DNA of 64,000 nucleotides. Origin: Mobula hypostoma. Taxonomy: Eukaryota. The stretch spans positions 162,628,001-162,692,000 of the forward strand of contig NC_086097.1 of the NCBI RefSeq assembly GCF_963921235.1. Reading direction: 5' to 3'. Every line of letters starts with the position of its first letter. Position 1 is the first letter of the stretch. The translations under genes were made by a program, and so were the position numbers. The notes below the pieces were generated by a model that saw only the letters and a program-made list of their open reading frames with translations, was not told the DNA's origin and did not search any database. Below are positions 5,560 through 61,184 of this stretch, in pieces.

Positions 5560-8500
5560 CAGGAATGTTTGGCTACATCAGAAAGATAGACATGTTCGAT
5601 TACACAACAGATGATGTATATTGGGTAATGTATATTGAATAAATTGAGCAGTATTTTAAAGGAAATGGAATTGCCAATGAGAAATGAGTACCAATTTTTC
5701 TGAGTGCAATTGTTGGAAGAGTATACAGTTTGCTTAGAAGTTATCAAATCATCCACAATAAGCTTTGCTGTTGTCATGAAAATAATGCAGGAACACTTTG
5801 CACCAAAACCATTGTTTACTTTAGGCAGAATTAAATGGAGTCCATTATAGGTTATGTGGCCAAATGGAAGAGATTGTCTGAAGATTGTCAATTCAGTGAT
5901 AGGGTTAATGCTGCACTGAGAGATTGTTCAGTTTGTGGAATCTTACATGAAAGCATTCAAAAACAGCTCCTAACTGAAGCACAACTGACTTTTAAAAAAG
6001 CAGTTGAAATCACTGTATCAATGGAGACAGCAGCTGGAGATACAATTGAGTTGCAGTCTGGAATGTAAATAAGTGTGAACAAAATTGCAATGATTAAACA
6101 GAAACCTACCTGGCCAAACAAATTGAGTTGCCTTTTGTGGCAGTGGCTGACATACACCAAAGCAAGGCAGGTTTCAAGGCAAAACTTACAGAAAATGCAA
6201 CAAAGTAGGACACAGGCAAAGAGCATGTTGGACAGATAAAAATAAGTGGACTGCACAGGGAAAAGAAGTTTAAAAAGTCAAGTTGCAGTTTCAAAAAGAA
6301 CACTACCTGCTGTTGATGAAAAATCTGATAATGATGAGAGTGACCCAGGACTGGGTAGCCTTGATGTTTACAGTGTGAAAGCTTACAATAGTCAAGCAAT
6401 ATGGCTTGGACCAGAAGTGAATGGTGAATTGTTTAAAAAGGAATTGGACACTGGCTCAGTCTTTCCACAAAATGAGTTTGAATGGCGTTTCAAAGATACT
6501 GAACTGAAGGCTACAGATATCCAATGACGAACTTACAATGGAGAAAGGATAAGCTGTGGGAATTACATTTGTAACAATGAAATACAATGTCCAGCAAGCC
6601 ACATTGGGCTTGCATGTGGTAAAAACAGGAGGCACAGCATTGTGGGGGGGGGGGGGAGAAGGAGAGGGGGGAGAGAGAGAGAGAGAGAAAGAAAGAAACA
6701 CTACAACTTCATTGGAATTCCACCATTTACATGCCATATCCCCTGCAACAGAGTCAACTGAAAGCAAATTAAGAAATGTACTGAATGATGCCACAGCAGT
6801 GTTCAGTGGAAAACTCAAGCATATCAAGGGTAAAATAGTGTTAAGTGAAAATGCCATACCCAACTTTTACAAACACATCTGGTTCCTTGTACCATCTATG
6901 ATAAAGTAACCAGTGGACTACATTGTGTGGAGCCTACGGGCAGTCCAGTGGTCCCAGTAGCCAAGGCGAATGGCTCTGTCAGGATCTATGGTGATTTTAA
7001 GGTCACCATCAACCCAGTACTGAAAGTAGATCAATACCCTCGGCCCACGATATAGGGTATCTTTGCAAACCTTTCCGGAGGAAAATACTTCAGCAAAGTA
7101 GACTTAGCTGAACACTACTTACAGATGGAGATGGAAAAAGACTCAAGTGTTTCTCACCATAAGCACTCATAAAGGGCTTTATTGCTATAATAGGCTTATT
7201 TTTGGAGTAGCATCTGCACCTACAGTCTGGCAGAAAGCTTCAACCAGGTGCTGCAAGGCTGTCCAGGTAGTGGTGGATGCCCAAGGGCGTGTAACAGTTG
7301 TGATCTTCTTTTAGGATTTGTCAATGACGATAACAAGTTCCTGCCAAACTTGGCTACTGTGCTCCACCCTTTGAACTCATTGCCGCAGATTGAGTAGAAC
7401 ATAACATAAGAAATAGGAGCCTGCATTGCCATTCAATATGATCATGGCTAATCTGGCCATGGACTCATCTCCACCTACCTGCCTTTTCCCCATAACCTTT
7501 AATTCCCCTACAATGCAAAAATCTATCCAACCTTATCTTAAATATATTTATTGAGGTGGCCTCCACTGCTTCATTGGGTAGAGAATTCCACAGATTCGCC
7601 ACTCTCTGGGAAAAGCAGCTCCTCCTCATCTCCATCCTAAATCTACTTCTCCGAATCTTGAGGCTGTGTCCCCTAGTTCTAGTAAATGAACAAAGCTGTG
7701 TGAATTGTCTTTCCAAAAGGCAAAAGCAATGGTGATGGCAGACACTGTACTCACTCATTATAATCCACATCGTCCAGTGAAGCTTGCCTGTAATGTCTCA
7801 CCTTGTGACATGATTGCACCAGTACTACATGTGATGAGTGATGGAAGTGAATGCCACATGGTCTTTAAATCATGTTCCCTTACTACTGTGAGAAAAATTG
7901 AGCACAGATCGATAGAGAGGCCACGAGTCTGGTTTGGGGTGTAAAATGTTTCAACCAGTACTTGTGTGGGAGAGAGTTTACCCTCATTACTAGTCATCGA
8001 CCACCAGTGTCCATTTTCAGTCCATGGAAGGGTGTTCCACTAAGAGCAGCAGCACGAATGCGGAGATGGGCTTTGTTCTTGGAGAGCACACTTACAAGAT
8101 TGAATTCAAGAGGACGACTAGTCATGGTAATGCTGATGGATTGTCCCATTTGCCCTTGGAAAGGGAAATGCCTGAAAAATGTACAAAAGGAGGACATTGT
8201 TCTTGACGTAATACAAATAGAAAGTCTTCCTATTACAGCAGAGATGACACAAAGAGAAACCAGAAAAGACCCAACAGTGACTTTGGCAGCCCAAAATGGC
8301 TAGAAGGTACAGCAGAAATTCCAGTTCCCCCATTTCTTTACCAGCGCTGAGATAAACTTGCCCTTGACGGAAGATGCTTTATGTGGGGATTGACAGTTGT
8401 TGTACCATCCAAGCTGAGAGCTGAAGTGTTGGAGGAGCCATATGCTGGTCATCTGGGTGTCGTCAAAATGTATGCGTTGTGTGAAGCCTTGTCTGGTGGC

Positions 8501-9290
8501 CTGGGATAGATCAGCATTTTGTGCAGCTTACCATGCATTGTTCGGGATGCCAACACATCCAGAATATGCCAAAAGCAGTGCCTCTCCATCCCTGGCAAAG
8601 GATTCATGGGGATTTTGCTGAACCATTCAAGGGTACCAATTACTCAGTTGTAGTGGATGCAGCTACAAAGTGGCCTGAGGTGTTCCCATTAGCCTCAAGT
8701 ACAGCCTCACAGAGTGTTGATATGTTGAGAACAACACTCTTCTCAAGGACCAGTGTTCTGGACCACTTAGTCAATGGCAATAGACCACAGTTTGTTGTGG
8801 AACAGTTTCAGTCATTCCTGAAAATGAATGGAGCAAGATGTATTGCATCTGCCTTGTATCACCCAGCCACAAGTGGCTTGGCAGAAAGGTTTGTCTAGAG
8901 TCTAAAGAATACACTGTGAGTGTTGCCAGCCGAACACATTACTGAATCAAAAGCTGGCCAAGTTTTTCCTTGTGTATCGCAATGCGGCACATTTCACAAT
9001 TCAACAGTTCACCAGTTATGCTGTTCCTGGGTCATCCTTTGTACTCGTGCTTGTATCTCCTCAAACCCAATCTCAGAAGGTGTATGCAGAACAAACAACA
9101 AAGACAAATTGAGGACTACTCAAACAAGGAGGTTCAGTGTTTCACTCCCGGACAAACAGTCCTGGCATGGGACTACAGAGGTGATCAAAAGAAGGCACTT
9201 GGAAAGATTAAGGACCACTTTCCTACACAGTGGAGATTGCGCCTGATGATACATTGATCAGTTGAGGAGAGCAGAGTTAATTGTTAGAGA
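5560..9290 (+). pseudogene. Gypsy gag-pol pseudogene (capsid, zinc knuckle, protease, RT, RNase H, integrase)
   Basis: Gag ORF 5835-6068 (LSEDCQF..LRD...CGILHESIQKQLLTE); knuckle C.KVGH...C near 6195-6230; protease ELDTGS near 6441; RT remnants 6950-7380 with the YxDD region deleted near 7268; RNase H 7705-8206 (HGNADGLSHLP); integrase ORF 8521-8898 (PWQRIHGDFA..VVVDAATKWPEV..YHPATSGLAERFV). Many stops and frameshifts. Confidence 0.9.
7397..7683 (-). mobile_element. CR1-like LINE 3' end inserted in Gypsy pol
   Basis: TRTRGHSLKI...FSQRVANLWNSLP (ORF 7465-7770) plus the typical tail. Confidence 0.9.
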
Positions 9291-11818: not shown

Positions 11819-12070
11819 CAGTGGCCCCCACCCTCCGGACAGCGACCCGATACTGATCCACGAAGCATGTAGGGGTACAGCGGTAGCCGCGACGCATCCA
11901 GCACATCTTTAAGAGAAAAACCGAAATAAACAAGCTCGTTAATTAGGTGCCGCCCAGCACGTAATTAATTAGCATGTTTATTTCGGCTTTTTTCTTAAAG
12001 ATGTGCTGTGTGCCTCCCGGCTACCACTGCATTCTCCGCGAGTCGGTATGTGTCCGCGACTTGGGGATTG
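11819..12070. mobile_element. Palindromic hAT (Charlie-like) MITE nested in Tigger copy 1
   Basis: 8-bp direct repeat gggtggtg at 11811-11818 and 12071-12078. Left end cagtggcccccaccctccgg is Charlie-like. Inverted arms of about 68 bp (about 11878-11945 and 11963-12029). Confidence 0.7.
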
Positions 12071-13117
12071 GGGTGGTGGGACACTGGGGTGTCATCTCAT
12101 CATCGATCAGGGCAGGCAGCTCATCTTCTCCTATGACTGCCTGCCTAGATGTCGAAGGTTGAGGTTCATTGTCTGCTGCAGCTGATGTGGAAGGCTTGCT
12201 TGACTGCTAGCCTTTTGCATTTTTCTATCATACAGTTCTTTGTAAGCACTCAAACCATCCTGCAAATATACCTTAAACCGACGTACCTTTTCAAAATTAA
12301 AGTCGTACTTTATCATTGCAGCGAAAATCTCACGCAGGTACTTCACGTTCAGTTCCTGGATGACTTCACCTTCAGTCTGTTTGCTACTGTATTCGGTTTT
12401 GATTGTTATCCTTCCTCTTCCAGTTACATCAGTTCTTGGTCATGGGATGCCAAAACCTCTTCAACATCACCTTCATCAACTTCCACAAGCCAAACTCACT
12501 TTGTCCTTACTTCGTTCATCACGATCGAAACGCTTAATTATGTCTAGTTTTACGCTAAGCATAACACCCTTACGAGTTCTTTTAGGCTTTTCTGATACTT
12601 TAGAACTCATCTTGCTAACGGCTGCTCTCAGGCACGTGTTTAAGCAATGCCGGCGAGAATACCGTTCCGAATCAGGGGGAGAGCGGCTGCTCGGGGCGCG
12701 CGCGGCCCTTTATCGCATGCTGCTTTTTTTCTCATGGGCTGATATTTCCGCGCGCTGCCTTTTTTGTAACAGTGAAAATACCTTCTGTTAGCAAAAACAG
12801 TTAACTAATGTAGGTCTTTCTTAACAGTGAGGTGTCGTAAAGCGAACGTTCGGAAAACGGGGGCCACCTGTATATGAAGCAAAAAAACTTTGTCAAATAC
12901 AGTGTCTTGACCTACCATATTCTACTTGTTAGAGATCATGTAGACTTTGTGTTTTACTTCCTTTATTTTTTCTTTTCTCAATTCAATCCATGTTTGTCTT
13001 TTTGAATATATCTGAAATGACATTTAATATTCAGTTTTCTTTTCTTTTCTTAAACATTCTCTCTGCTCCTTAAAACAAAATTCCACATTTCATCATTTTT
13101 CGTTGTCTATTTTGCAG

Positions 13118-19848: not shown

Positions 19849-21348
19849 CAGTGCCTTGTACTGTAAAAGTATTCAGCCCGATGCCCTTTATCACATAAGT
19901 GAATTGAATTGACTTTACTTCTTACATCCTTCACATACATGAGGAGTAGAAGTCTTTACGTTACTTCTCCGTCTAAATGTGCAATCAAAGTAGTATATAA
20001 TAATTTATAATAAATAGAACAGTCAGTGTAACATAGAAATACACTCAAATCAGTGTGAGTTAATCACTCTGATAGCCTGGTGGAAATGAGTATTATAACC
20101 AGGGATTTTGATCAATTTAACTGAGAATTTTTATTTGTGAATCACATGCTCCTTTTTTTCAAAGTAGAGAGCCCAAAAACAGAGAAAATTGTAAAGCAAG
20201 AAAAACTAAAAGTTCAAAACCTGAAATGTCAACAGTTCCAAAAGTATTCCCCTTTGCTCAGTATTTAGTTGAACCGCCTCTCTTTACCATTACCGTCACT
20301 AGACTTTTTGGATATGTCTCTATTGGCTTTGTGCAATGTGATAGAGCAAGATATGCCATTCCTCCTTGCAAAATTGCTCAAGCTGTGCCAGGTTAGTTGG
20401 AAAGCAGCAGTGGAAGCATTTTTGAGGTTTTTCCAGAGATGTTCGAATGGGTTAAGGTCAGGACTTTGGCTAGGCCACTCAAGGGCATCAATTTTTTTCA
20501 TTTGAAGCCATGCCATGGTTGCTCTGGCAGTGTGCTTAGGGTCATTGTCATGCTGAAAAATGACCTTCCTCCCCAGTTTAAGCTTTCTGGCAGAGACTGG
20601 CAGGTTTTTATTTCACATCTCTCTGTATTTAGCAGCATTCACTTTCACATCAATCCTGACCAGATTTCCGGTCTCTGCTGCTGGAAAGCATCCCCATAGC
20701 ATGATGCTACCTCCACCATATTGTACAGAAGGAATAGTGTTTCCTGGCTGATTCACAGTATTAGATTTATGCCATACATACCACTTAGTGTTGAGGCCTG
20801 AAATTTTGACTTTAGTCTCCTCCAACCACAAGACCTTCTTCAATATCTTTATAATATTTCTAAGTGACGCTTTGCAAAATCTTTATGCCTTTGAAATAGT
20901 CTTGTACCCTTCTCCAGATTGGTCCTTCACTATAATCATTTCCCTGACTTGTCCTGAATGCTCTTTTGTCTTCATTTTGATTTGATCTGTTGAAAATATA
21001 CCATGCTATTGGACCTTGTAGGGGAATGGTATTTATTCTTACGAGTTAATTGAAAGCAGGTGACCCTCCAATTTTCTACGTCAGAAAATTGGGTGAATTG
21101 GTAAGGTAATATATTGTATTGCGTTTGAAGAAAATTAGTGCAATAGTTACAAAGGGGATGAACACTTTTTCAGCCTCGACATTTTGTTTTTTTAATTTTT
21201 AATACATTGTTGACATGTCTTGGAATTTTTCTTTTGATTTGACATGATGCACAATGTTTTGTAGATTAGTTCAAAAAATCCTACTTAAATATAAGTTTAG
21301 TAAGATGTGCAGATAGTTGTGGTCGCTGAATACTTATTCAAAGCTCTG
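19849..21348 (-). mobile_element. Tc1-like transposon, decayed; contains a LINE-tail insertion at about 19900-20085
   Basis: TA-flanked ends cagtgcct..aaagtattcagc / gctgaatactt..gctctg. ORF 20613-20843 (VLW.EETK..VQYGGGSIMLWGCF) and ORF 20265-20516 ([16 protein letters not shown]). Splits an older LINE tail. Confidence 0.9.
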
Positions 21349-23400: not shown

Positions 23401-24200
23401 CTGATTGTATCAGATATGATTTAGATCAGTGACTAGGTTTGGGTGGCTTTGGATGAGTTGCTGGCTAAGAAAGTATTGCTAAGTGATGTTGCACTCCAAA
23501 AAAAAAATACAGCTACTGCAGGAGGTAATATAAGTTTTTATTTGTGGAGCTTAATTTTATTGAGCTGGGTTAACTATTTTTTTTGATTTTTCTCATTGAC
23601 AATGCTATTCCGAACCAGAGGGGAAAAGATTGATGATTTCAAACTCAATAAAGCTTGTTGACTGCTCTGCTGGAGGTGCCTGAAATCCATTTCTTTGGGT
23701 ATGCATTTGAAGGTATTTTCACCCAGGGAGCTGTTAATTTTTGAAGCTTTCTACCAAAGAGGGTCAGTCACTGAGAATGTTTAAGACTCAGAATGACAGA
23801 TTTTTGGATATGAAGGGAATCCAGGGATGTAGGTTTGCTTAAAATCGTAGCAAAAAATAAACTGCTAGATGAACTCAATGGGTCAAGTGGTACCTGTGAA
23901 GGTGGAGAAATGGCCACCTTTCCAAGTCAAGAGTTACTAGGATCAAACTTCAACTTCAAGAGCTAAATTGCATGCATAAATTATATCAGCTGTGGATGTG
24001 GTTCCTTGATTCCATTGAAGTTTTCGGGGTATTATAGTTAATGGATATGATATACCTGGTTGAGGGGGAGGAGATGGTCTAGAACTGGGGCTTAGGATTG
24101 AAGTTAGGAAATTCTTCTGAATGCAGAGGGTGTTTGAAGCATTGACAAATCTTTGCCAAAAATCTGTTGATAGGTCAATTATTAATTTTATTCAGAGATT

Positions 24201-24341
24201 CAGAGAGTCCTGACGAAGGGTCTCGGCCCGAAACGTCAACTATACCTCTTCCTATAGATGCTGCCTGGCCTGCTGTGTTCCACTAGCATTTTGTGTGTGT
24301 TGCTTGAATTTCCAGTATCTGCAGATTTCCTCGTGTTTACC
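24201..24341 (+). mobile_element. Solo Penelope-like pseudo-LTR with 13-bp TSD
   Basis: TSD ttattcagagatt at 24188-24200 and 24342-24354. Same sequence as the termini of the GIY-YIG elements at 47040-47750 and 58085-59098. Confidence 0.85.
24206..24241 (+). ncRNA. Minimal type I hammerhead ribozyme motif
   Basis: agtc CTGACGA a ggg-tctcgg-ccc GAAA cgTC^ aact. Core intact, 3-bp helix II, palindromic ACGU helix III; helix I has one mismatch next to the cleavage site. Confidence 0.7.
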
Positions 24342-25137
24342 TTATTCAGAGATTGATTATTTTTCATTAACTCAAATGGAGAAATGACAAGGAGAGAATG
24401 CATATTGGGAGGGAGTTGGACAAGTCATGGCTGTATTAAATAGTTGGATTGGCTCTACCTTCAAGGCTAAGTAGAGCAGAGAAGATGCTTAGTGGGCATG
24501 GAGGTTGACTCCGTGGAGACACCAGAACTAGACAAGGCAAAACATCTGAAAATCTTGGAAGTGAAGGTATCAAAACAAATGCATAAGTGATGTGGGATGT
24601 CAATGCAGATTAGTTTTAACAGAATAGTTGGGTAATTTGTGATGTGCATATGGGTGATTTGAACCTTTAACAGATTGAAGTTTGTAGACAAGGAAGGGAA
24701 ATGGTTTGTGATATCCATGTGCTTATTGAAGTGATGGATGAAAGCTTCAGGTATGTCTTGCCACTAGATGGAGAAAAGTACCTTGGAAATTGATGCAGGC
24801 ATAATGTGTTCACACAAATGAATGGACAGTTGACTGGGGAAGGGCAGGAGCCATGAAGAGGCAGTCACTCTAACCTGTTAGTGCTATTTGTGCTCTTGAT
24901 AAGAAAGATTGAAAATGAATGAGTCAATCTGGAAATGAAATAGCATCTGGATGCATGCGCATGTGCCTATTCATTTCCTGAATCCTACTGAATAATAATT
25001 GCTGCACAAAAATGAGGACGTGTGTTCCTGAAGTCAAGAGGAAATGAAACTTGGTGTAAGCTATGTAGTTTTCCAGTCCATCTCTGCTTTCTATAATCTG
25101 GTATTGACCTGTGTGATGTTCTGAAAATTAGGATATA

Positions 25138-41334: not shown

Positions 41335-41920
41335 CTCATGTGCTGGTTCCCTCCCCTCTGAGAGAGAAGGTTGCAGTTCAGGCCTCACTCTTGGTTGATA
41401 CTGCAGTATAGCTGTTGCATTCATCATGAGACAATAAACAGAGGCACCATCTGCCTTCTAGGGTATTCATAGATGTTCCAAGTCATTGTCACAAAGAATA
41501 ATGGAATTAGCCCTGCTGAAAATCCAAATGATGAAAGATGTTGACAGATGCTGAAAGTCTGAAATTAAAAATTGAAAATGTTGGAAACACTCCTATCTGT
41601 CAAAAGACTGGTCTGGTGAAGGGCCTCCAAACCTCATACATTATCTCTGTTTCTCTTGCCACGGATGCTACCTAGCCTGTGAGGGTACCAAGCATTTTCT
41701 GATTTTATTTGAGTTACCCTGTGTGTTCAGACAAATATTTAACCCTTAGCCAATATCATTAAATATGCATATTATTTATTTATTACTTCACATTTATGAA
41801 TACCGTGCTATGTGCAAATTGCCTTCTTCACTGTATCAATATTTACTACCTTTCAAACAAAAATGTAAATCTTAAAAGGTGCTTAAATGCAAGTCCTCCT
41901 TGTACTTACAAGGCTGTTAA
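41335..41920 (+). mobile_element. Ancient Deu-type SINE relic split by a Penelope-like foldback (about 41543-41710)
   Basis: atgagacaataaacagaggcaccatctgcc..ag(a/t)tgttcc..aaatatttaaccctt..aatatcattaaa resembles the Deu domain. Confidence 0.5.
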
Positions 41921-44905: not shown

Positions 44906-45475
44906 ACATCTTTTATTTTATTTTTAATGTCCTTGCAGAGAAAAGAGATTATCATGTCCCGATGCATGGAATAACCCAGTCACATGGATTAGTTTTGTAA
45001 CATAGTAATTTTATTGATTGTCAGATTACTGATTTTTAGAAAAAATATTTTTGCTATACAGTGGTTTTCCAAGGAAATGAGCACAGCTGTTTTGGATGTG
45101 TGAGATGTGGAAGAGGCAGCAAAGAAACAGGAGGGTAGAGGGCAAAGTGCATGTTAAGAGGCTTCTCCTGGAGCAGGGTGGTCAAAGAACAGCTGTGGGG
45201 CATTAAATGCCAATGGTCAAGTGAAGGAAATTGGGACAAAAGATTTGGAGTTAGAAATAAATCCAAAAGCAAGGAGAAAGCAGAGATTTATCTTCACAGC
45301 TTAACTGTTAAAACATCCTGTGAATGTGCCTTGGCATGCTTTCAGATTTATTGATGCAGTTTACTGTAAACGGGTTGATAGAGAGAATGTCCCATGCCCA
45401 TTAGTAGATTATAAAATAGTGATGTCACTGTAAGATTAATAATTTCTGCTTGGAATTACTTGATAAAGGAAACTA

Positions 45476-45675
45476 AAGCAACCCACACAAAATGCTGGAG
45501 GAACCCAGCTATTCAGGCTGCATCTATGGAGGAGAAAAAACAGTTGATATTCTTAGGTCGAGATCCTTCATCATTATTTTATTTGCCTCCGTAGATGCTG
45601 CCTGACTTGCTGAGTTCCTGTAGCATTTGTATGTGATGCTCAGGGTTTCCAGTGTCTGCAGGATATCTTGTGTTG
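45476..45675. mobile_element. Foldback pair of Penelope-like pseudo-LTRs
   Basis: Left arm cacaaaatgctggaggaacccagc..catctatggagg; right arm cctccgtagatgctgcctgacttgctgagttcctgtagcatttgt. Hammerhead remnant ccttcatca at the centre. Confidence 0.75.
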
Positions 45676-45984: not shown

Positions 45985-46175
45985 AAATCTGCACATTGTG
46001 GAAATCTGAAAGAAAATGTTGGAACACGTCAGGCCAGACAGCATCTGTGGAACAAGAAACAGAATCAATATTTCAGGTTGAAGACTTCAGACAAAGGGTC
46101 TTTGGCCTGAAATATTAACTTTGTTTCTCTTTCCACAAAGCCTCTTGACTTGTTGTATCTGGCATTTTCTGTTCG
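45985..46175. mobile_element. Older foldback pair of Penelope-like pseudo-LTRs
   Basis: Arms 46046-46085 and 46098-46137 are imperfect reverse complements around a 12-nt loop with a degenerate core (cagacaaagggtc). Confidence 0.65.
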
Positions 46176-46379
46176 TTAATTTAGCGTGGGCTGGTTAGGC
46201 CAAACAACTTGTCTGTTCAGTGTTTCCAGTGCAGTGCAGAAGATCATATGAATTTCCAGAGAATGTGCTTGTCAGCCACAGTTTTAAGAACTCATGACGT
46301 TATTAAGAACTTTGATATGTTGACTAACGTTGCTGCATTTTTTCAAATTGCCTTATGAAATTGTCTGTGGGACATAAAA

Positions 46380-46680: not shown

Positions 46681-47039
46681 GTCCTGGAAATAATTTTCAA
46701 CTATATTTTAGAAGCAGGAATATTTAATTGCATCCATTGAGAGTACTGCTGCTACTTGAGTTGCACCTAGGCATCCAGAAGTACAGATATGAAATATTCC
46801 TAATTAGTTAGGGCAAAACCTCCAAAGTAATAAGCCTCTAAAGTAGGAGTTACAGATGTTTTATCATATTTGTTTTCAGTTTTTGGATAGGCATAATTTA
46901 GAATCTAAAGGTGTCGTGTTATTGAGGCATTATCATGATAATTGGAAGATGCTAAAGGAGTTGTTACTTCTATAAACTGGGTTAATTTTGTACAGCATCC
47001 ATCTTGTTTGGTGTTCTGTGTACCTGTAGGTAACCACAG

Positions 47040-47750
47040 TTTATCTCAACATTCAGGGCCTCAAACAGTCCTTCCAGGTGAGGGGATATTTCACTTTGTA
47101 TCTGGAGCTTCCAATGGGGTCTCTTCTACATTGGTGAAACCCGATGTAAATTGGGTGGCTGCTTTGTTGAGTAGCTCTGTTCCATCTGCCAATTGTGGAA
47201 ATCCCCAGTGGCCAACCATTTTAATTCCTGTCCTCATTCCTGTTCTGACATGTTGGTACATGGCCTCTTCTTTTCCCACAATGAGGCCACTCTCAGGGTG
47301 GAGGAGCAACACCTCATATTCTGTCTGGTTAGCCTCCAACCTGATGGCATGAACATTGATTTCTCCTTCCGGTATTTTTTTCTCCCACTTCTTCTATTCC
47401 CCACTCTGGCCTCCTATCTCTTCTCCTTGCCGACCTACCATCTCCTCTTGATGCTCCTCCATTTTACCTTTCTCCCACAGTCCACTCTCCTCTCTTATCA
47501 AATTCCTTCTCCAGCCCTTTATCTTTCCCACCCACCTGGCTTCACCTAGCTAGTCCTGCTTCCTCTCCCCCCTCCCCCCCCCACCTTCTTATACTAGCAT
47601 CTTCCCACTTCCTTTCCAGTCCTGATGAAGGGGGGTGTTGGCCCAAAAGGTTGAATATTTATTTCCATAGATACTACCCAGCTTGCTGAGTTCCTCCAGC
47701 GTTTTATGTGTGTTGCTCTGGATTTCTAGCATCTGCAGAATCTCTGGCAT
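47040..47750 (+). mobile_element. Penelope-like element 3' part (GIY-YIG remnant and pseudo-LTR)
   Basis: ORF 47193-47549 PVANHFNS.PHS.SDMLVHGL...EATLRVEEQHLIFCL..LQPDGMNIDFS, pyrimidine tract, then cagtcctgatgaag..catagat..gagttcctccagc..atctgcagaatc. Confidence 0.85.
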
Positions 47751-48044
47751 TTATTATCTACAAGTAACCTCATTTCCTCTGGAAACAACAACTGACGTAT
47801 TCTCCCAGGTGTAATGTTCAAAACAGATCTTATCCTTTTTCAGATTTGGTCTTGAATATCTTGATGAATGTATTCAGAATAAGCACATCCAAAGAACAAT
47901 TAATTTATTTGTAAGGCCGTCAGGAATTTACTTGTTAAGATATTAATCTGGCAATTAGAATAATCTAGACAATTTTTTCCATGACTCTGCTATCCCATTG
48001 GATCTTTATAAATTAGATAAAATCATTTCAGTTATTGATGTTTA

Positions 48045-49122
48045 ATAGACAATAGGTGCAGGAGTAGGCCATTCAGCCCTTCAAGCCAGCACCACCATTC
48101 ACTGTGATCATGGCTGATCATCCACAATCAGTACCCTGTTCCTGCCTTCTCCCCATATCCCTTGACTCCACTATCTTTAAGAGCTCTATCTAACTCTTTC
48201 CTGAAAGCATCCAGAGAATTGGCATCCACTGCCTTCTGAGGCAGAGCATTCCACAGATCCACAACTCTCTGGGTGAAATAGTTTTTCCTCAACTCCGTTC
48301 TAAATGGCCTACCCTTCAGTCTTAAACTATGGCTTCTGGTTCCAGACTTCCCCAACATCGGGAACATGTTTCCTGCCTGCAGCGTGTCCAATCCCTTAAT
48401 AATCTTATATGTTTCAATGAGATCCCCTCTCATCCTTCTAAATTCCAGTGTATACAAGCCCAGTTGCTCCAGTCTTTCGACAGATTACAGTCCTGCCATC
48501 CTGGGAATTAACCTCGTGAACCTACGCTGCACTCCCTCCATAGCAAGAATGTCCTTCCTCAAATTTGGAGACCAAAACTGCACACAATACTCCAGGTGTG
48601 GTCTCACAAGGGCCCTGTACGACTGCAGAAGGACCTCTTTGCTCCTTTACTCAATTCCCCTTGTTATGAAGGCCAACATGCCATTAGCTTTCTTCACTGC
48701 CTGCTGTACCTGCATGCTTACTTTCAGTGAGTGATGAACAAGGACACCTAGATCTCGTTGTACTTCCCCTTTTCCTAACTTGACACCATTCAGATAGTAA
48801 TCTGCCTTCCAGTTCTTGTCACCAAAGTGGATAACCTCACATTTATCCACATTAAACTGCATCTGCCATGCATTTGCCCATTCCCCCAACCTGTCCAAGT
48901 CACCCTGCATTCTCATAACATCCTCCTCATATTTCACACTGCCACCCAGCTTTGTGTCATCTGCAAATTTGCTAATGTTTCTTTTAATCCCTTCATCTAA
49001 ATCATTAATGTATATTGTAAATTGCTGTGGTCCCAGCACTGAACCTTGCGGTACCCCACTGGCTCGGTGCTGGGACCACAGCTATTTACAATATACATAA
49101 ATGATTTAGATGAAGGGATTAA
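48045..49122 (-). mobile_element. Young CR1-like LINE, 5'-truncated, with inverted duplication at its 5' end
   Basis: Long open RT fragments (ORFs 48647-49039 and 48128-48457); tail aatagacaataggtgcagg; inverted repeat 48984-49042 / 49064-49122. Confidence 0.92.
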
Positions 49123-58020: not shown

Positions 58021-58084
58021 AGAAGTTGTCCCTTTGCACTAAAGTTAAAAGGGATCAAGATTGCATTTTTTGAGAAGCTTGCCA

Positions 58085-59098
58085 AAACCCAAGGTAACGC
58101 ACACAAAATGCTGGAGGAACTCAGCAGGGCAAGCAGCATCTATGGAAAAGAGTAAACAATCGACGTTTTAGCCCGAGACCCTTCATCAGGACTGGAAAGA
58201 ATGAGAAGTTGGGGGGAGGGGAGGAAGAAGTACGTGGTGGTGGGTGAAACTGAGAGAAGGGGAGAGGGTGAAATAAAAAGCTGGGAAGTTGATTGGTGAA
58301 GGGCTGGAGAAGGGAATCTGATGGATGATAGAAGACCATGGAAGAAAGGGAAGGAGGTGAAGCACTAGAGGGAGGTGATGGGTAGGTAAGGAAATGAGGT
58401 GAGTAGGGAAACAGGAATGGGGAATGATGAAGGGGGGTGGGCAATTACCAGAAGTTTGAGAAATTGATGTTCATGCCATCATGGCTACCCAGGTGGAATT
58501 TCAGTTACTGCTCCTCCAACCTGAGTGTGACCTCATCATGACAGTAGTGGAGGCCATGGACTGACCTGTTGAAATGGGAATGGTATGTAGAATCGAAATG
58601 GCTGGCCATCGGGAGACCCCACTTTTTCTGGGGGATGGAGTGTAGTTGCTCAGTGAAGCGGTCTCCCAGTCTACATCGGGTCTCACCGATATACAGGAGG
58701 CCACAGTGGAGCACCAGATATAGTAAATGACCCTCACCAGGCTCACAGATGAAGTGTCGCCTCACCTGGAAGGACTGATTGGGGCCCTGAATGGTAGTGT
58801 AGGGGCAGGTGTAGCACTTGTTCTGCTTTCAAGGATAAGTACCAGGAGGGAGATCAGTGGGGAGGGACGACTGGACAAGGGAGTCATGTAGGGACCTGCC
58901 ACCTTGTACTACTTCTTCCCATCCCCCCTCCCCCATCTTCTTATTTTGACTTTCTCTCTTTCTTTCCATTCCTGATGAAGGGTCATGGACCAACACGTCA
59001 ACTGTACTCTTCTCCATAGATGCTGCCTGGATTGCTGAGTTCCTCCAGTGTTTTGTGTGTGTTACCTTGGATTTCAAGCATCTGCATATTTCCTCGTG
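58085..59098 (-). mobile_element. Penelope-like element: GIY-YIG endonuclease remnant flanked by inverted pseudo-LTRs
   Basis: Frameshifted VIYYIWC / CGLLYIGETRCRLGDRFTEQL..ASHFDS..HGL..RLEEQ (ORFs 58501-58765). Termini at about 58085-58240 and 58895-59075 are reverse complements, each with a degenerate hammerhead core. Confidence 0.9.
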
Positions 59099-61184
59099 TC
59101 GGCAAAGCCCATGGTGCTTGTGCTCTGCCCCAGCTGCCAGACTACAGGTAGTGTGGTGCAGTAACACTGCAAAACCAACAATAGACTATTCCAATTTGTT
59201 TTAGGAATTTTTGCACCCAAATTATATTGATTGGTTTGAAAGGTGTCCTTATTTAATATATAAACAGACCTTTTATTTAGCTCAAACACACTGAGGTTGT
59301 GAACTTTTTGCATAAATTACAGACAATGCCTAGCTATTAATAGGATACTGTATAACACATGAAACATCCATGTAACCAAACTAGAGAAGACAATAATTCT
59401 GTCTTTGTTCTATTAATAGGCAAAAATAGCAAAACTAAAAAAGCACATTAAGAATGGTAAACACTTCCATATTCATCATCCAGAGTATATGGGCACAATT
59501 AACATTAACAATTCAAAGAAATAACACAGCTGCAGTTGGTAGAATCCCAAATGGAGCTTAAAATAAGTCAGAATTCCTTTTAAAGCTTGTGCCACAGTGC
59601 AATTTCATGGATATTTACAGCACTGTAAGGAATGGTGCAGACTTTGAAAAAGATGTCATTTTATAAGTTGGGGAAAAGCAGATTGAAATAGATCAACTGA
59701 AGTACAAAGTACGGGAAACTTGTACGTCAGTCAACAGCTGAAATATTTTGGGTATGGACCTTACACAAAAGATTTACACACAAAACATGAAGCATTCTTT
59801 TTCACCTCACTTGATTTGCAATGCACTTGAGTGACTGGATTTGCTTTCTCAATTTCACGATGGAAGTGCAATTGTCCATGGAGCCTCCTAAACGAAAGAG
59901 CACACTGAGAAGCTAATCACCAAAACCTTTGCCTCAGGAGCTGGTAAATGATGGGTCGAGCATTAAGTTCTTTTGAATTCCACCCCAAATTAGTTTTATT
60001 TCACTGCTGTTCAGATGGACTCGAATGTGTGGTTTGCTTTTAGTGCAAAGCTGCAATCCATTTAAACTGTAAAGGGGCAGCCATTAAGGTAATTCAAAAG
60101 ATGGTGAGAAAGTGAGATTAGTCTTGATTTTACCACATTAGTGTAATTGAACTGGAGAGAATGAGACCAGCAGCTGCATTGTAACACACTGTTATCCTGA
60201 TGAGATATAGTTGATCTCAATTAATTTGCTTCTGCTTTTGCCACAGGACAAAGGCTTGGCAGAATCTTTCCTGAAGGGCCAGTTTTTCTGATGAAGTGCT
60301 CTTTATGTTGAGGAAGCAGTTTAGTGGAGCCCATGGGAGTTGGGCCTGAATTTGTCTGATTAAAGCTGAGGCTGATAGGAGTATGGAGAGTGCTTTATAA
60401 AAGTGCTGGCAGAAATGCTGGCTGGAATGAAGAATGCAGAGCTTTATTTTTTGCAACATCTCTGATGGTGAGTGAAGGGGACATACGTGCTGCTTTTATC
60501 AGCTTGTGATGAAGTTTTGTTGTATATATGACATGCAAAGATTCTGAGAATAATCTATAATTGAAAATGTTGATCGGATATTATGTTGCAAATTGTATTA
60601 AAAATATAACAATTCAAGCTAGCCTGTTGGTAATGATTGACTTGGCAGTTTTTTTATGTTTATCTGTAATTGTGTGAACAGCATTGTAGTTAATATTAGG
60701 TTTTCAAATTTGTCTGAAGTGGAACATTGTCAAACTATTTATTGAGCTTTCGAGTTATTATGCATAAAATTTGTTCTGTTGTTTTGTGCAGAGGAGCTTT
60801 GAGATCTGATGTCCCTATTGAGGTATTTTAAATGACCTGGGGACAAAGGAGATGTGTGAGGCAAGTGTGTTTTTTCACAAAGTGGTAGGTTCCTGGAACA
60901 TTCTGCCAAGACAGCTAGTAGAAACAGAGATGATAGTGACGTTTTAGACAGAGACACTGATAAGCAGGGAACTGAGGGATATGGACTGTGCACACGTTGA
61001 TGGCATCATGTTTGGTGCAGGCAGAGTGGACCAAAGGACCTGCTTCTGTGCCGTACTTCTGTATGTTTGATGTTTTTACTTGGGTTGATTATGTATTAAA
61101 CAAACAAATGTAGCAAGGGAACAGGAATTGATGTAAGAGAGATGAGTAATTGTAGGGGAATGTGAATTTGATGTCAGCCGCAGC

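What the first reader, a model, noticed from the sequence alone, without database searches (positions are those of the whole stretch)
24188..24354. TSD-flanked 141-bp non-coding retroelement that begins with a hammerhead ribozyme
Seen: between perfect 13-bp TSDs lies agtc-CTGACGA-a-ggg(tctcgg)ccc-GAAA-cgTC^-aact. Combining it with the minus-strand copy at 58157-58194 reconstructs CAGUC CUGAUGA A GGG-UCUCGG-CCC GAAA CGUC^ GACUG. Known: Penelope-like elements carry minimal type I hammerheads with a palindromic, loopless helix III that cleave as dimers, and an extra A after A9 occurs in natural hammerheads. Inference: either a 5'-truncated Penelope insertion or a SINE-like ribozyme unit moved in trans. 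It is sense to the putative + strand pre-mRNA, so active copies could cut intronic RNA. This copy has a C-A mismatch in helix I, probably from CpG decay.
Basis: partly seen in the sequence, partly recalled or inferred. Interest (0 to 1): 0.72.

Follow-up and report, generated by a model that had tools for sequence, protein, structure and literature searches.

The report
Truncated Penelope-element insertion with damaged hammerhead
This is a real, fairly recent 141-base insertion left by a very common Penelope-like jumping gene in a ray-type fish genome; it carries the small self-cutting RNA motif these elements are already known to have, and this copy is likely unable to cut, so it is ordinary.

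Summary
In detail: exact 13-bp repeats (24188-24200, 24342-24354) flank 141 bp holding a complete minimal type I hammerhead core (24210-24237). A related organism has the empty site with the 13-mer once, so the duplication arose on insertion. The insert is the 3' end of an endonuclease-positive Penelope-like retrotransposon (PLE), likely Neptune-type: two sister copies in the window run upstream into an RT/GIY-YIG frame, and the insert ends with the known 30-40 bp 'tail'. Tens of thousands of contigs per run match it. The SINE-like and retrozyme readings failed their tests: no Pol III promoter, no tandem array, and the 5' junction cuts into helix I. This copy keeps only 3 helix I pairs and has no intact partner in 64 kb, so it likely does not cleave; no host exon was found, so 'cuts intronic RNA' is unsupported. 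PLE hammerheads were published in 2014, and this scan noted the same family before on other DNA, twice in this genome. Open: whether 5' ends pile up at the hammerhead.

The parts
24188..24200 (+). left copy of the 13-bp target-site duplication (AT-rich)
   Evidence: exact repeat; present once in the empty site of organism C (record 9)
24201..24205 (+). 5 extra letters at the 5' junction, a short re-copy of the target (24190-24197 recur at 24198-24205); not PLE sequence
   Evidence: relatives have a pyrimidine tract here (table 7); the empty-site contig stops matching at 24200
24206..24209 (+). start of PLE homology; 4 of the 5 letters of the helix I 5' strand
24210..24217 (+). hammerhead core C3-A9 plus the extra A between positions 9 and 10.1
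   Evidence: sequence; pattern unique in window; feature list in PMC4209133
24218..24229 (+). helix II, 4 bp with G10.1-C11.1 and a 4-nt loop
   Evidence: pair table and pair probabilities 0.58-0.65 in the whole insert
24230..24237 (+). G12-A15.1, palindromic loopless helix III half (ACGU) and C17; predicted cleavage between 24237 and 24238
   Evidence: numbering from established hammerhead knowledge
24238..24242 (+). helix I 3' strand, with A at 24238 and 24242 where most relatives have G; 3 pairs left
   Evidence: G in 77-88% (24238) and 94-99% (24242) of depth in 4 of 4 runs (table 3)
24243..24304 (+). body of the PLE 3' terminal repeat (pLTR) up to the first cluster of 3' ends
   Evidence: 75-80% identical to three sister copies over the shared part; loose ends at 24298-24304 (table 7)
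24305..24341 (+). optional 30-40 bp PLE 'tail'
   Evidence: present in 24k, 59k, 47k, 45.6k copies, absent in 58k; depth falls from 6.7e6 to 2.4e6 and 985 loose ends at 24338 in X1
24342..24354 (+). right copy of the target-site duplication
58073..58894 (-). sister copy: 5'-truncated PLE with broken RT-EN linker and GIY-YIG frame, 3' UTR and a damaged hammerhead, no tail
   Evidence: tblastn E 5e-55 to P0001
58894..59099 (+). inverted pLTR with tail, head-to-head with the copy above
47033..47752 (+). sister copy: 5'-truncated PLE with GIY-YIG remnant, 3' UTR, damaged hammerhead and tail
   Evidence: tblastn E 9e-31 to P0001
45462..45675 (.). short head-to-head pair of family copies joined at the hammerhead

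Best explanation
The 141-bp insert is the hammerhead-bearing 3' end of an endonuclease-positive Penelope-like retrotransposon, duplicated target included, that was likely laid down by target-primed reverse transcription which stopped early, and its ribozyme is likely inactive. Shown: TSD, empty site in a relative, homology to sister copies that carry the RT/GIY-YIG frame, tail, helix I damage. Inferred steps: (1) the element's GIY-YIG nuclease cut the AT-rich target with a 13-nt stagger; (2) its RT began at the outer of two internal start sites, which gave the tail (by analogy with the anole Poseidon element); (3) it copied about 136 nt across the cleavage site, so the template was uncut at this hammerhead; (4) synthesis ended inside helix I and the 5' junction closed with a 5-nt re-copy of target; (5) a G-to-A change at the CpG beside the cleavage site broke the first helix I pair. 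In the parent element the motif would act as a weak, dimer-dependent or protein-assisted ribozyme; here it is a passenger.
For: Empty site in X10, insertion junctions in X1 and X5. [quoted passage not shown] A CX4CxxC linker before GIY-YIG fits the Neptune/Nematis mark given in PMC8557442. 411 X1 contigs have loose ends before 24206 whose consensus is the same pyrimidine tract as in the long sister copies (table 7). Two clusters of 3' ends about 35-40 nt apart match the tail and the two RT start sites of PMC11167929. 5' truncation, inverted pLTR, tail and 8-10 bp TSDs are standard for PLEs. Only 3 helix I pairs; predicted fold mis-pairs the core (-11.7 versus -5.8 kcal/mol for the hammerhead-like arrangement); no second intact core in 64 kb.
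Against: The 5' end falls 4 nt before C3, and other short copies also start near there (5 of 11 profile hits start at columns 711-718, C3 at 715), which random truncation does not predict. The loose ends before 24206 agree only 0.40, no better than the mixed 3' flanks (0.37-0.42), so many relatives may also stop near the hammerhead. No full-length parent was seen. In X5 both junction contigs carry only 28 and 30 element letters, just under the tool's 31-letter bar for bridging. The mechanism is borrowed from a different PLE clade. Cleavage was not assayed, and energy models often mis-pair hammerhead cores.
Confidence: 0.82

Rival explanations
1. Same parent element, but the short form has a preferred 5' end: RT starts at the internal site just downstream of the hammerhead and stops at a fixed point at helix I, set by the RNA's 5' end, a splice acceptor or the folded hammerhead, so 'solo hammerhead + tail' copies are a regular by-product of PLE replication.
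For: 5 of 11 profile hits start within columns 711-718; head-to-head pairs at 45.5k and 46.0k meet at the hammerhead; 8 of the 15 joints shown are opposite-strand joints with one arm at 24205-24216 (table 5); the two long copies have an acceptor-like site inside helix I (top 0.5% of 8603 AG sites on a crude matrix), where the D. virilis intron also ends.
Against: Of the 6 confident hits (E below 1e-10) only 2 start there, and one is the finding itself; 1 of the other 5 is not significant (P about 0.07-0.09 under log-uniform lengths). Weak old hits start at the core because it is the most conserved part. The laid stretch has no PLE sequence before 24206, so joints and loose ends collect there by construction. 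Table 6 lists no start or end pile-up (contigs are poor for this). The letters before helix I in this copy are target-like, not an exon.
Confidence: 0.12
2. A separate SINE-like or retrozyme-like non-autonomous unit, transcribed and self-processed on its own and moved in trans by the PLE enzyme.
For: Short, non-coding, TSD-flanked, very abundant. pLTR-derived retrozymes exist in vertebrates, one chondrichthyan included, and leave dispersed monomers. pLTRs suffice for movement in trans in a rotifer. Single contigs show short tandem hammerhead cores (table 5c).
Against: No tandem array at the locus (0 of 21 TRF rows overlap it); no tRNA gene in the window; the only B-box-like match is at 62.3k; the hammerhead is minimal, not the canonical type of retrozymes; a ribozyme-cut monomer would start at 24238, not 32 nt earlier; sister copies have five other 5' ends.
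Confidence: 0.04
3. An active ribozyme that cuts a host + strand intronic RNA and so affects the host gene.
For: All 12 core letters are intact. G exceeds C in 13 of 14 and T exceeds A in 11 of 14 unmasked blocks, as on a transcribed sense strand (recalled knowledge). A run guessed to be RNA holds two short contigs of the right flank.
Against: 3-bp helix I with a mismatch at the cleavage site; no intact partner; min-HHR monomers showed no cleavage and dimers little; the anole PLE hammerhead needed the element's protein; 8 of 9 Xenopus dimers did not cleave; no exon found; the insertion is lineage-limited.
Confidence: 0.02

Closest known systems
Minimal type I hammerheads (min-HHR) in pLTRs of metazoan Penelope-like elements (Cervera and De la Pena 2014, PMC4209133; read: parts 1-2 of 4, abstract to start of methods)
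   Same: Full core, extra base between 9 and 10.1, G10.1-C11.1, palindromic 15.2-16.2 with no loop 3, place in the pLTR after an RT/GIY-YIG frame, mostly single dispersed motifs ascribed to truncated PLEs.
   Different: Helix II here is 4 bp (7-8 in Schistosoma); this copy has a broken helix I; the host is a ray, a group not named in the parts read.
5'-truncated EN+ PLE insertions with tail and inverted pLTR (PMC3846280, PMC8557442, PMC8969392; read: passages)
   Same: 5' truncation, optional 30-40 bp tail on one arm, head-to-head inverted copies in sisters, short TSD with an empty site.
   Different: Here the truncation leaves only hammerhead plus tail; TSD 13 bp against 8-10 bp in the rotifer passages; clade likely Neptune-type by linker motif, no tree built.
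Poseidon_Ac (PAc) of the green anole (Frangieh et al. 2024, PMC11167929; read: parts 1-2 of 4)
   Same: Hammerhead about 100-135 nt upstream of two clusters of 3' ends; AT-rich target with ATT; copy spans the cleavage site, as expected if uncut RNA is the template.
   Different: PAc is Penelope/Poseidon clade and its ORF starts in helix II; no ORF start could be tied to this pLTR (only chance-level matches).
Metazoan non-LTR retrozymes (PMC7229834, passages; bioRxiv 10.64898/2026.07.22.740005, parts 1-3 of 5)
   Same: Short, non-coding, type I hammerhead, pLTR-related, TSD longer than 4 bp.
   Different: Retrozymes are tandem arrays, mostly with canonical hammerheads, that give circular RNA; this is a single minimal motif with a PLE tail.

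Membership tests
PLE min-HHR | Conserved core CUGANGA ... GAAA ... UH | tested here: met
   24210-24237; 1 match, 0.00 expected
PLE min-HHR | Extra nucleotide between 9 and 10.1, and G10.1-C11.1 pair | tested here: met
   A24217; G24218-C24229. 24229 reads T in 41%, 37%, 8% and 58% of depth among relatives in the 4 runs
PLE min-HHR | Palindromic 15.1-16.1 with no loop 3 | tested here: met
   ACGU at 24233-24236
PLE min-HHR | Helix I of 4-5 bp | tested here: not met
   This copy: 3 pairs, C-A next to the cut. Most relatives read G at 24238 and 24242 and the 58k copy has 5 pairs, so the family meets it
PLE min-HHR | Lies in the pLTR after an RT/GIY-YIG frame | tested here: met
   Sister copies at 58k and 47k
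PLE min-HHR | Self-cleavage as a dimer | not testable with these tools
   Needs an assay; Rfam models gave no match, which says little for a motif without helix III
EN+ Penelope-like element insertion | Target-site duplication made on insertion | tested here: met
   13-bp repeat; empty site in X10
EN+ Penelope-like element insertion | Optional 30-40 bp tail; inverted pLTR in some copies; variable 5' truncation | tested here: met
   58073-59099 is an inverted structure
EN+ Penelope-like element insertion | Parent ORF with RT and C-terminal GIY-YIG | tested here: met
   Through homologues only; the window fragments themselves gave no Pfam hit (0 of 2); the insert holds no ORF part
Neptune clade of PLEs | CX2-5CxxC linker between RT and EN, and RT phylogeny | tested here: inconclusive
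   Linker motif present in the ray homologues and, with one Cys codon a stop, at 58k; shared with Nematis; no tree built
Non-LTR retrozyme | Tandem units, each with a hammerhead | tested here: not met
   0 of 21 TRF rows overlap the insert; one core in the window
Non-LTR retrozyme | Unit-length linear and circular RNA | not testable with these tools
   Only contigs were available
SINE | tRNA- or 5S-derived head with Pol III boxes | tested here: not met
   0 tRNA; no B box in the insert at 1 mismatch; no Rfam match

The most novel reading that the evidence does not exclude
In rays the hammerhead marks a fixed stopping or switching point of PLE reverse transcription, so the element sheds a huge class of solo 'hammerhead + tail' and fold-back mini-insertions with defined 5' ends; the motif would then shape cDNA ends by its fold or by an overlapping splice acceptor, not by cleavage, which would speak to the open question of what PLE hammerheads are for.
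Probability: 0.13. Interest if true: 0.45.

Novelty: new member of a known kind. Interest (0 to 1): 0.13.

Why it matters
As it stands, little: one more dispersed copy of a published motif in a published kind of insertion. It is a clean example (exact TSD, empty site in a relative, tail) and a usable presence/absence marker among rays. If 5' ends prove to pile up at helix I across this very large family, ray genomes would offer a cheap, high-count test of how PLE reverse transcription ends and of what the hammerhead does.

Tried and rejected
Whole genome: none held, so no genome-wide copy survey. Rfam: no hammerhead hit in the window (11 weak unrelated matches) or around the insert (1 chance match). 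Fold stability of the 141 nt: not above shuffles (z 0.81, 158 of 200 as good). Host gene: crude splice scan gave 9 unconvincing candidates; 0 of 98 unmasked + strand frames of 48 aa or more hit Pfam; the 126 minus-strand frames listed were not scanned. ORF start in the pLTR: first 130 aa of the long homologues against six element copies gave only chance-level matches. Expression: no RNA holder listed on record; run X9, only guessed to be RNA, covers 24384-24650 and not the left flank, which shows nothing either way. Depth ratio insert to flank of about 4e5 in X1 is not a copy number by the tool's own warning. Core conservation in the family: among the rows shown no listed variant at the 12 core positions, but 11 rows were not shown and laying selects for likeness, so this is not counted as proof. 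Lunse et al. 2017 was not held; known only from a review passage (PMC6765202). Literature searches listed no paper devoted to PLE hammerheads of sharks or rays; the library lacks most subscription papers and Repbase, so this is no claim of absence. Look-ups of earlier findings by place and by sequence were empty. Supplements of the papers were not read; those of the bioRxiv preprint (retrozyme consensus tables, one chondrichthyan) may bear on the retrozyme comparison.

Full report
Observation. The 13-mers at 24188-24200 and 24342-24354 are identical and enclose 141 bp. Such bracketing is rare by chance: 19 of 20000 random segments of the window. The insert holds a full hammerhead core at 24210-24237: CUGACGA, an extra A, a 4-bp helix II closed by G10.1-C11.1, GAAA, the palindrome ACGU and C17. 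The core pattern occurs once in the window against 0.00 expected. Rfam does not report it.

The duplication is a true TSD. No genome is held, so I laid contigs of four public runs on 23900-24650. In X10 (organism C) one contig covers 301 letters of left flank up to 24200 and 290 letters of right flank from 24360, with 4 letters between: the empty site, 13-mer once. X1 (organism A, maybe the source of the window) and X5 (organism B) have contigs that run from each flank 28-30 letters into the element; this is just under the tool's 31-letter bar, but both sides agree. Flank substitutions are 15 of 665 for A-B and 20 of 591 for A-C. So the insertion most likely postdates the split from C and predates the split of A and B; lineage sorting is not excluded.

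What the insert belongs to. A profile made from four window copies gives 11 hits, 6 with E below 1e-10. Two of them, 58073-58894 (minus) and 47033-47752 (plus), continue upstream through a pyrimidine-rich 3' UTR into a broken reading frame. The 58k frame finds 6 proteins among 13 candidates, all named from Mobula hypostoma or Hypanus sabinus, five at 55-65% identity over 99-100% of the query, so the host is likely a ray. [quoted passage not shown] A CX4CxxC linker precedes the nuclease, the mark that PMC8557442 gives for Neptune and Nematis; I built no tree. The family is very large: 59495, 44587, 28779 and 4744 contigs were laid in the four runs, nearly all on the insert.

Ends. 3' ends fall in two clusters, near 24298-24304 and at 24338 (985 loose ends in X1), and depth drops between them (some breaks at 24301-24304 are subfamily mismatches, not ends). 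In the window the 58k copy lacks the last 35-40 nt and its inverted partner at 58894-59099 has them. This is the 'tail' and inverted pLTR pattern of PLEs, which PMC11167929 explains by two internal RT start sites. At the 5' end, homology starts at 24206, inside helix I. The five letters before it repeat the target. Among relatives, 411 X1 contigs have loose ends there whose consensus is the 3' UTR pyrimidine tract, but agreement is only 0.40, so the share that continues upstream cannot be read off. The six confident window copies start at profile columns 2, 85, 636, 711, 716 and 752 (C3 at 715): varied truncation, with a hint of clustering that is not significant once the finding itself is set aside.

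The ribozyme in this copy. The predicted fold mis-pairs the core. The 58k copy has lost G12, and no other intact core lies within the window. Published min-HHR monomers did not cleave and dimers cleaved weakly (review passage); the anole motif needed the element's protein and was dispensable for insertion in vitro; 1 of 9 Xenopus dimers cleaved. Because the insert spans the cleavage site, its template was uncut at this motif (inference). I judge this copy likely inactive; no assay was run.

Host transcript. I found no exon (minus-strand frames not scanned). G over C in 13 of 14 blocks and T over A in 11 of 14 would fit + strand transcription (recalled knowledge) but replication skew could do the same. 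The window is otherwise full of decayed elements with RT, integrase, DDE and Tc5-type domains. The claim about cutting intronic RNA has no support here.

Comparison. It works like, and belongs to, the min-HHR-bearing 3' ends of EN+ PLEs described in 2014, which were already noted to be mostly single motifs from truncated elements. It fails the retrozyme test (no tandem array; minimal core) and the SINE test. Five earlier notes of this scan, two from this genome, reach the same kind of verdict on other DNA; they are unchecked AI notes and I count them as no support; one gave me the lead to PMC3846280.

Verdict. Real, correctly spotted, ordinary: new member of a known kind, interest 0.13. The one open point is whether 5' junctions cluster at helix I, where long copies also show an acceptor-like site as D. 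virilis Penelope does; a genome-wide junction plot would settle it.

Noticed in passing
window 58192-58217 (-) and 47595-47620 (+): In both long copies the pyrimidine tract ends in CAG inside the helix I 5' strand and scores in the top 0.5% of 8603 AG sites on a crude acceptor matrix; the D. virilis Penelope intron ends at the same place. No clear donor found.
   Followed up: partly
table 5c, relative to 24199-24243: Single contigs in X1, X5 and X10 go back from 24234-24243 to 24199-24208 with 2-30 letters between: tandem hammerhead cores of about 35-66 bp period, one with a hairpin spacer. These could be dimer-competent mini-retrozymes elsewhere in these genomes.
   Followed up: no
window 24229: Relatives read T here (G-U in place of G10.1-C11.1) in 41% and 37% of depth in organisms A and B but 8% in C: a subfamily that seems to have spread after the split from C.
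   Followed up: no
window 45462-45675, 45985-46180, 41545-41722: Short head-to-head (fold-back) family insertions whose junctions lie at or near the hammerhead; the last two are older and weaker matches.
   Followed up: partly
window 58079-58091 and 59098-59110; 47022-47033 and 47758-47769: Possible decayed TSDs around the two long sister insertions (10 of 13 letters alike for the 58-59k one, by eye).
   Followed up: no
window 27455-27988 (-), with relatives near 12479-12872: Tigger/pogo-type transposase fragment (CENP-B_N and HTH_Tnp_Tc5); 20268-20612 is a DDE_3 fragment and 8485-8895 an integrase fragment.
   Followed up: no
window 49010-49096 and 11899-12008: Long near-perfect inverted repeats that draw weak Rfam miRNA matches far below gathering scores; likely MITE-like hairpins.
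   Followed up: no
proteins P0001-P0006: Several ray gene models named 'uncharacterized', 'mucin-2' or 'chitinase domain-containing protein 1' hold this PLE's RT or GIY-YIG frame: annotation noise or exonised elements.
   Followed up: no
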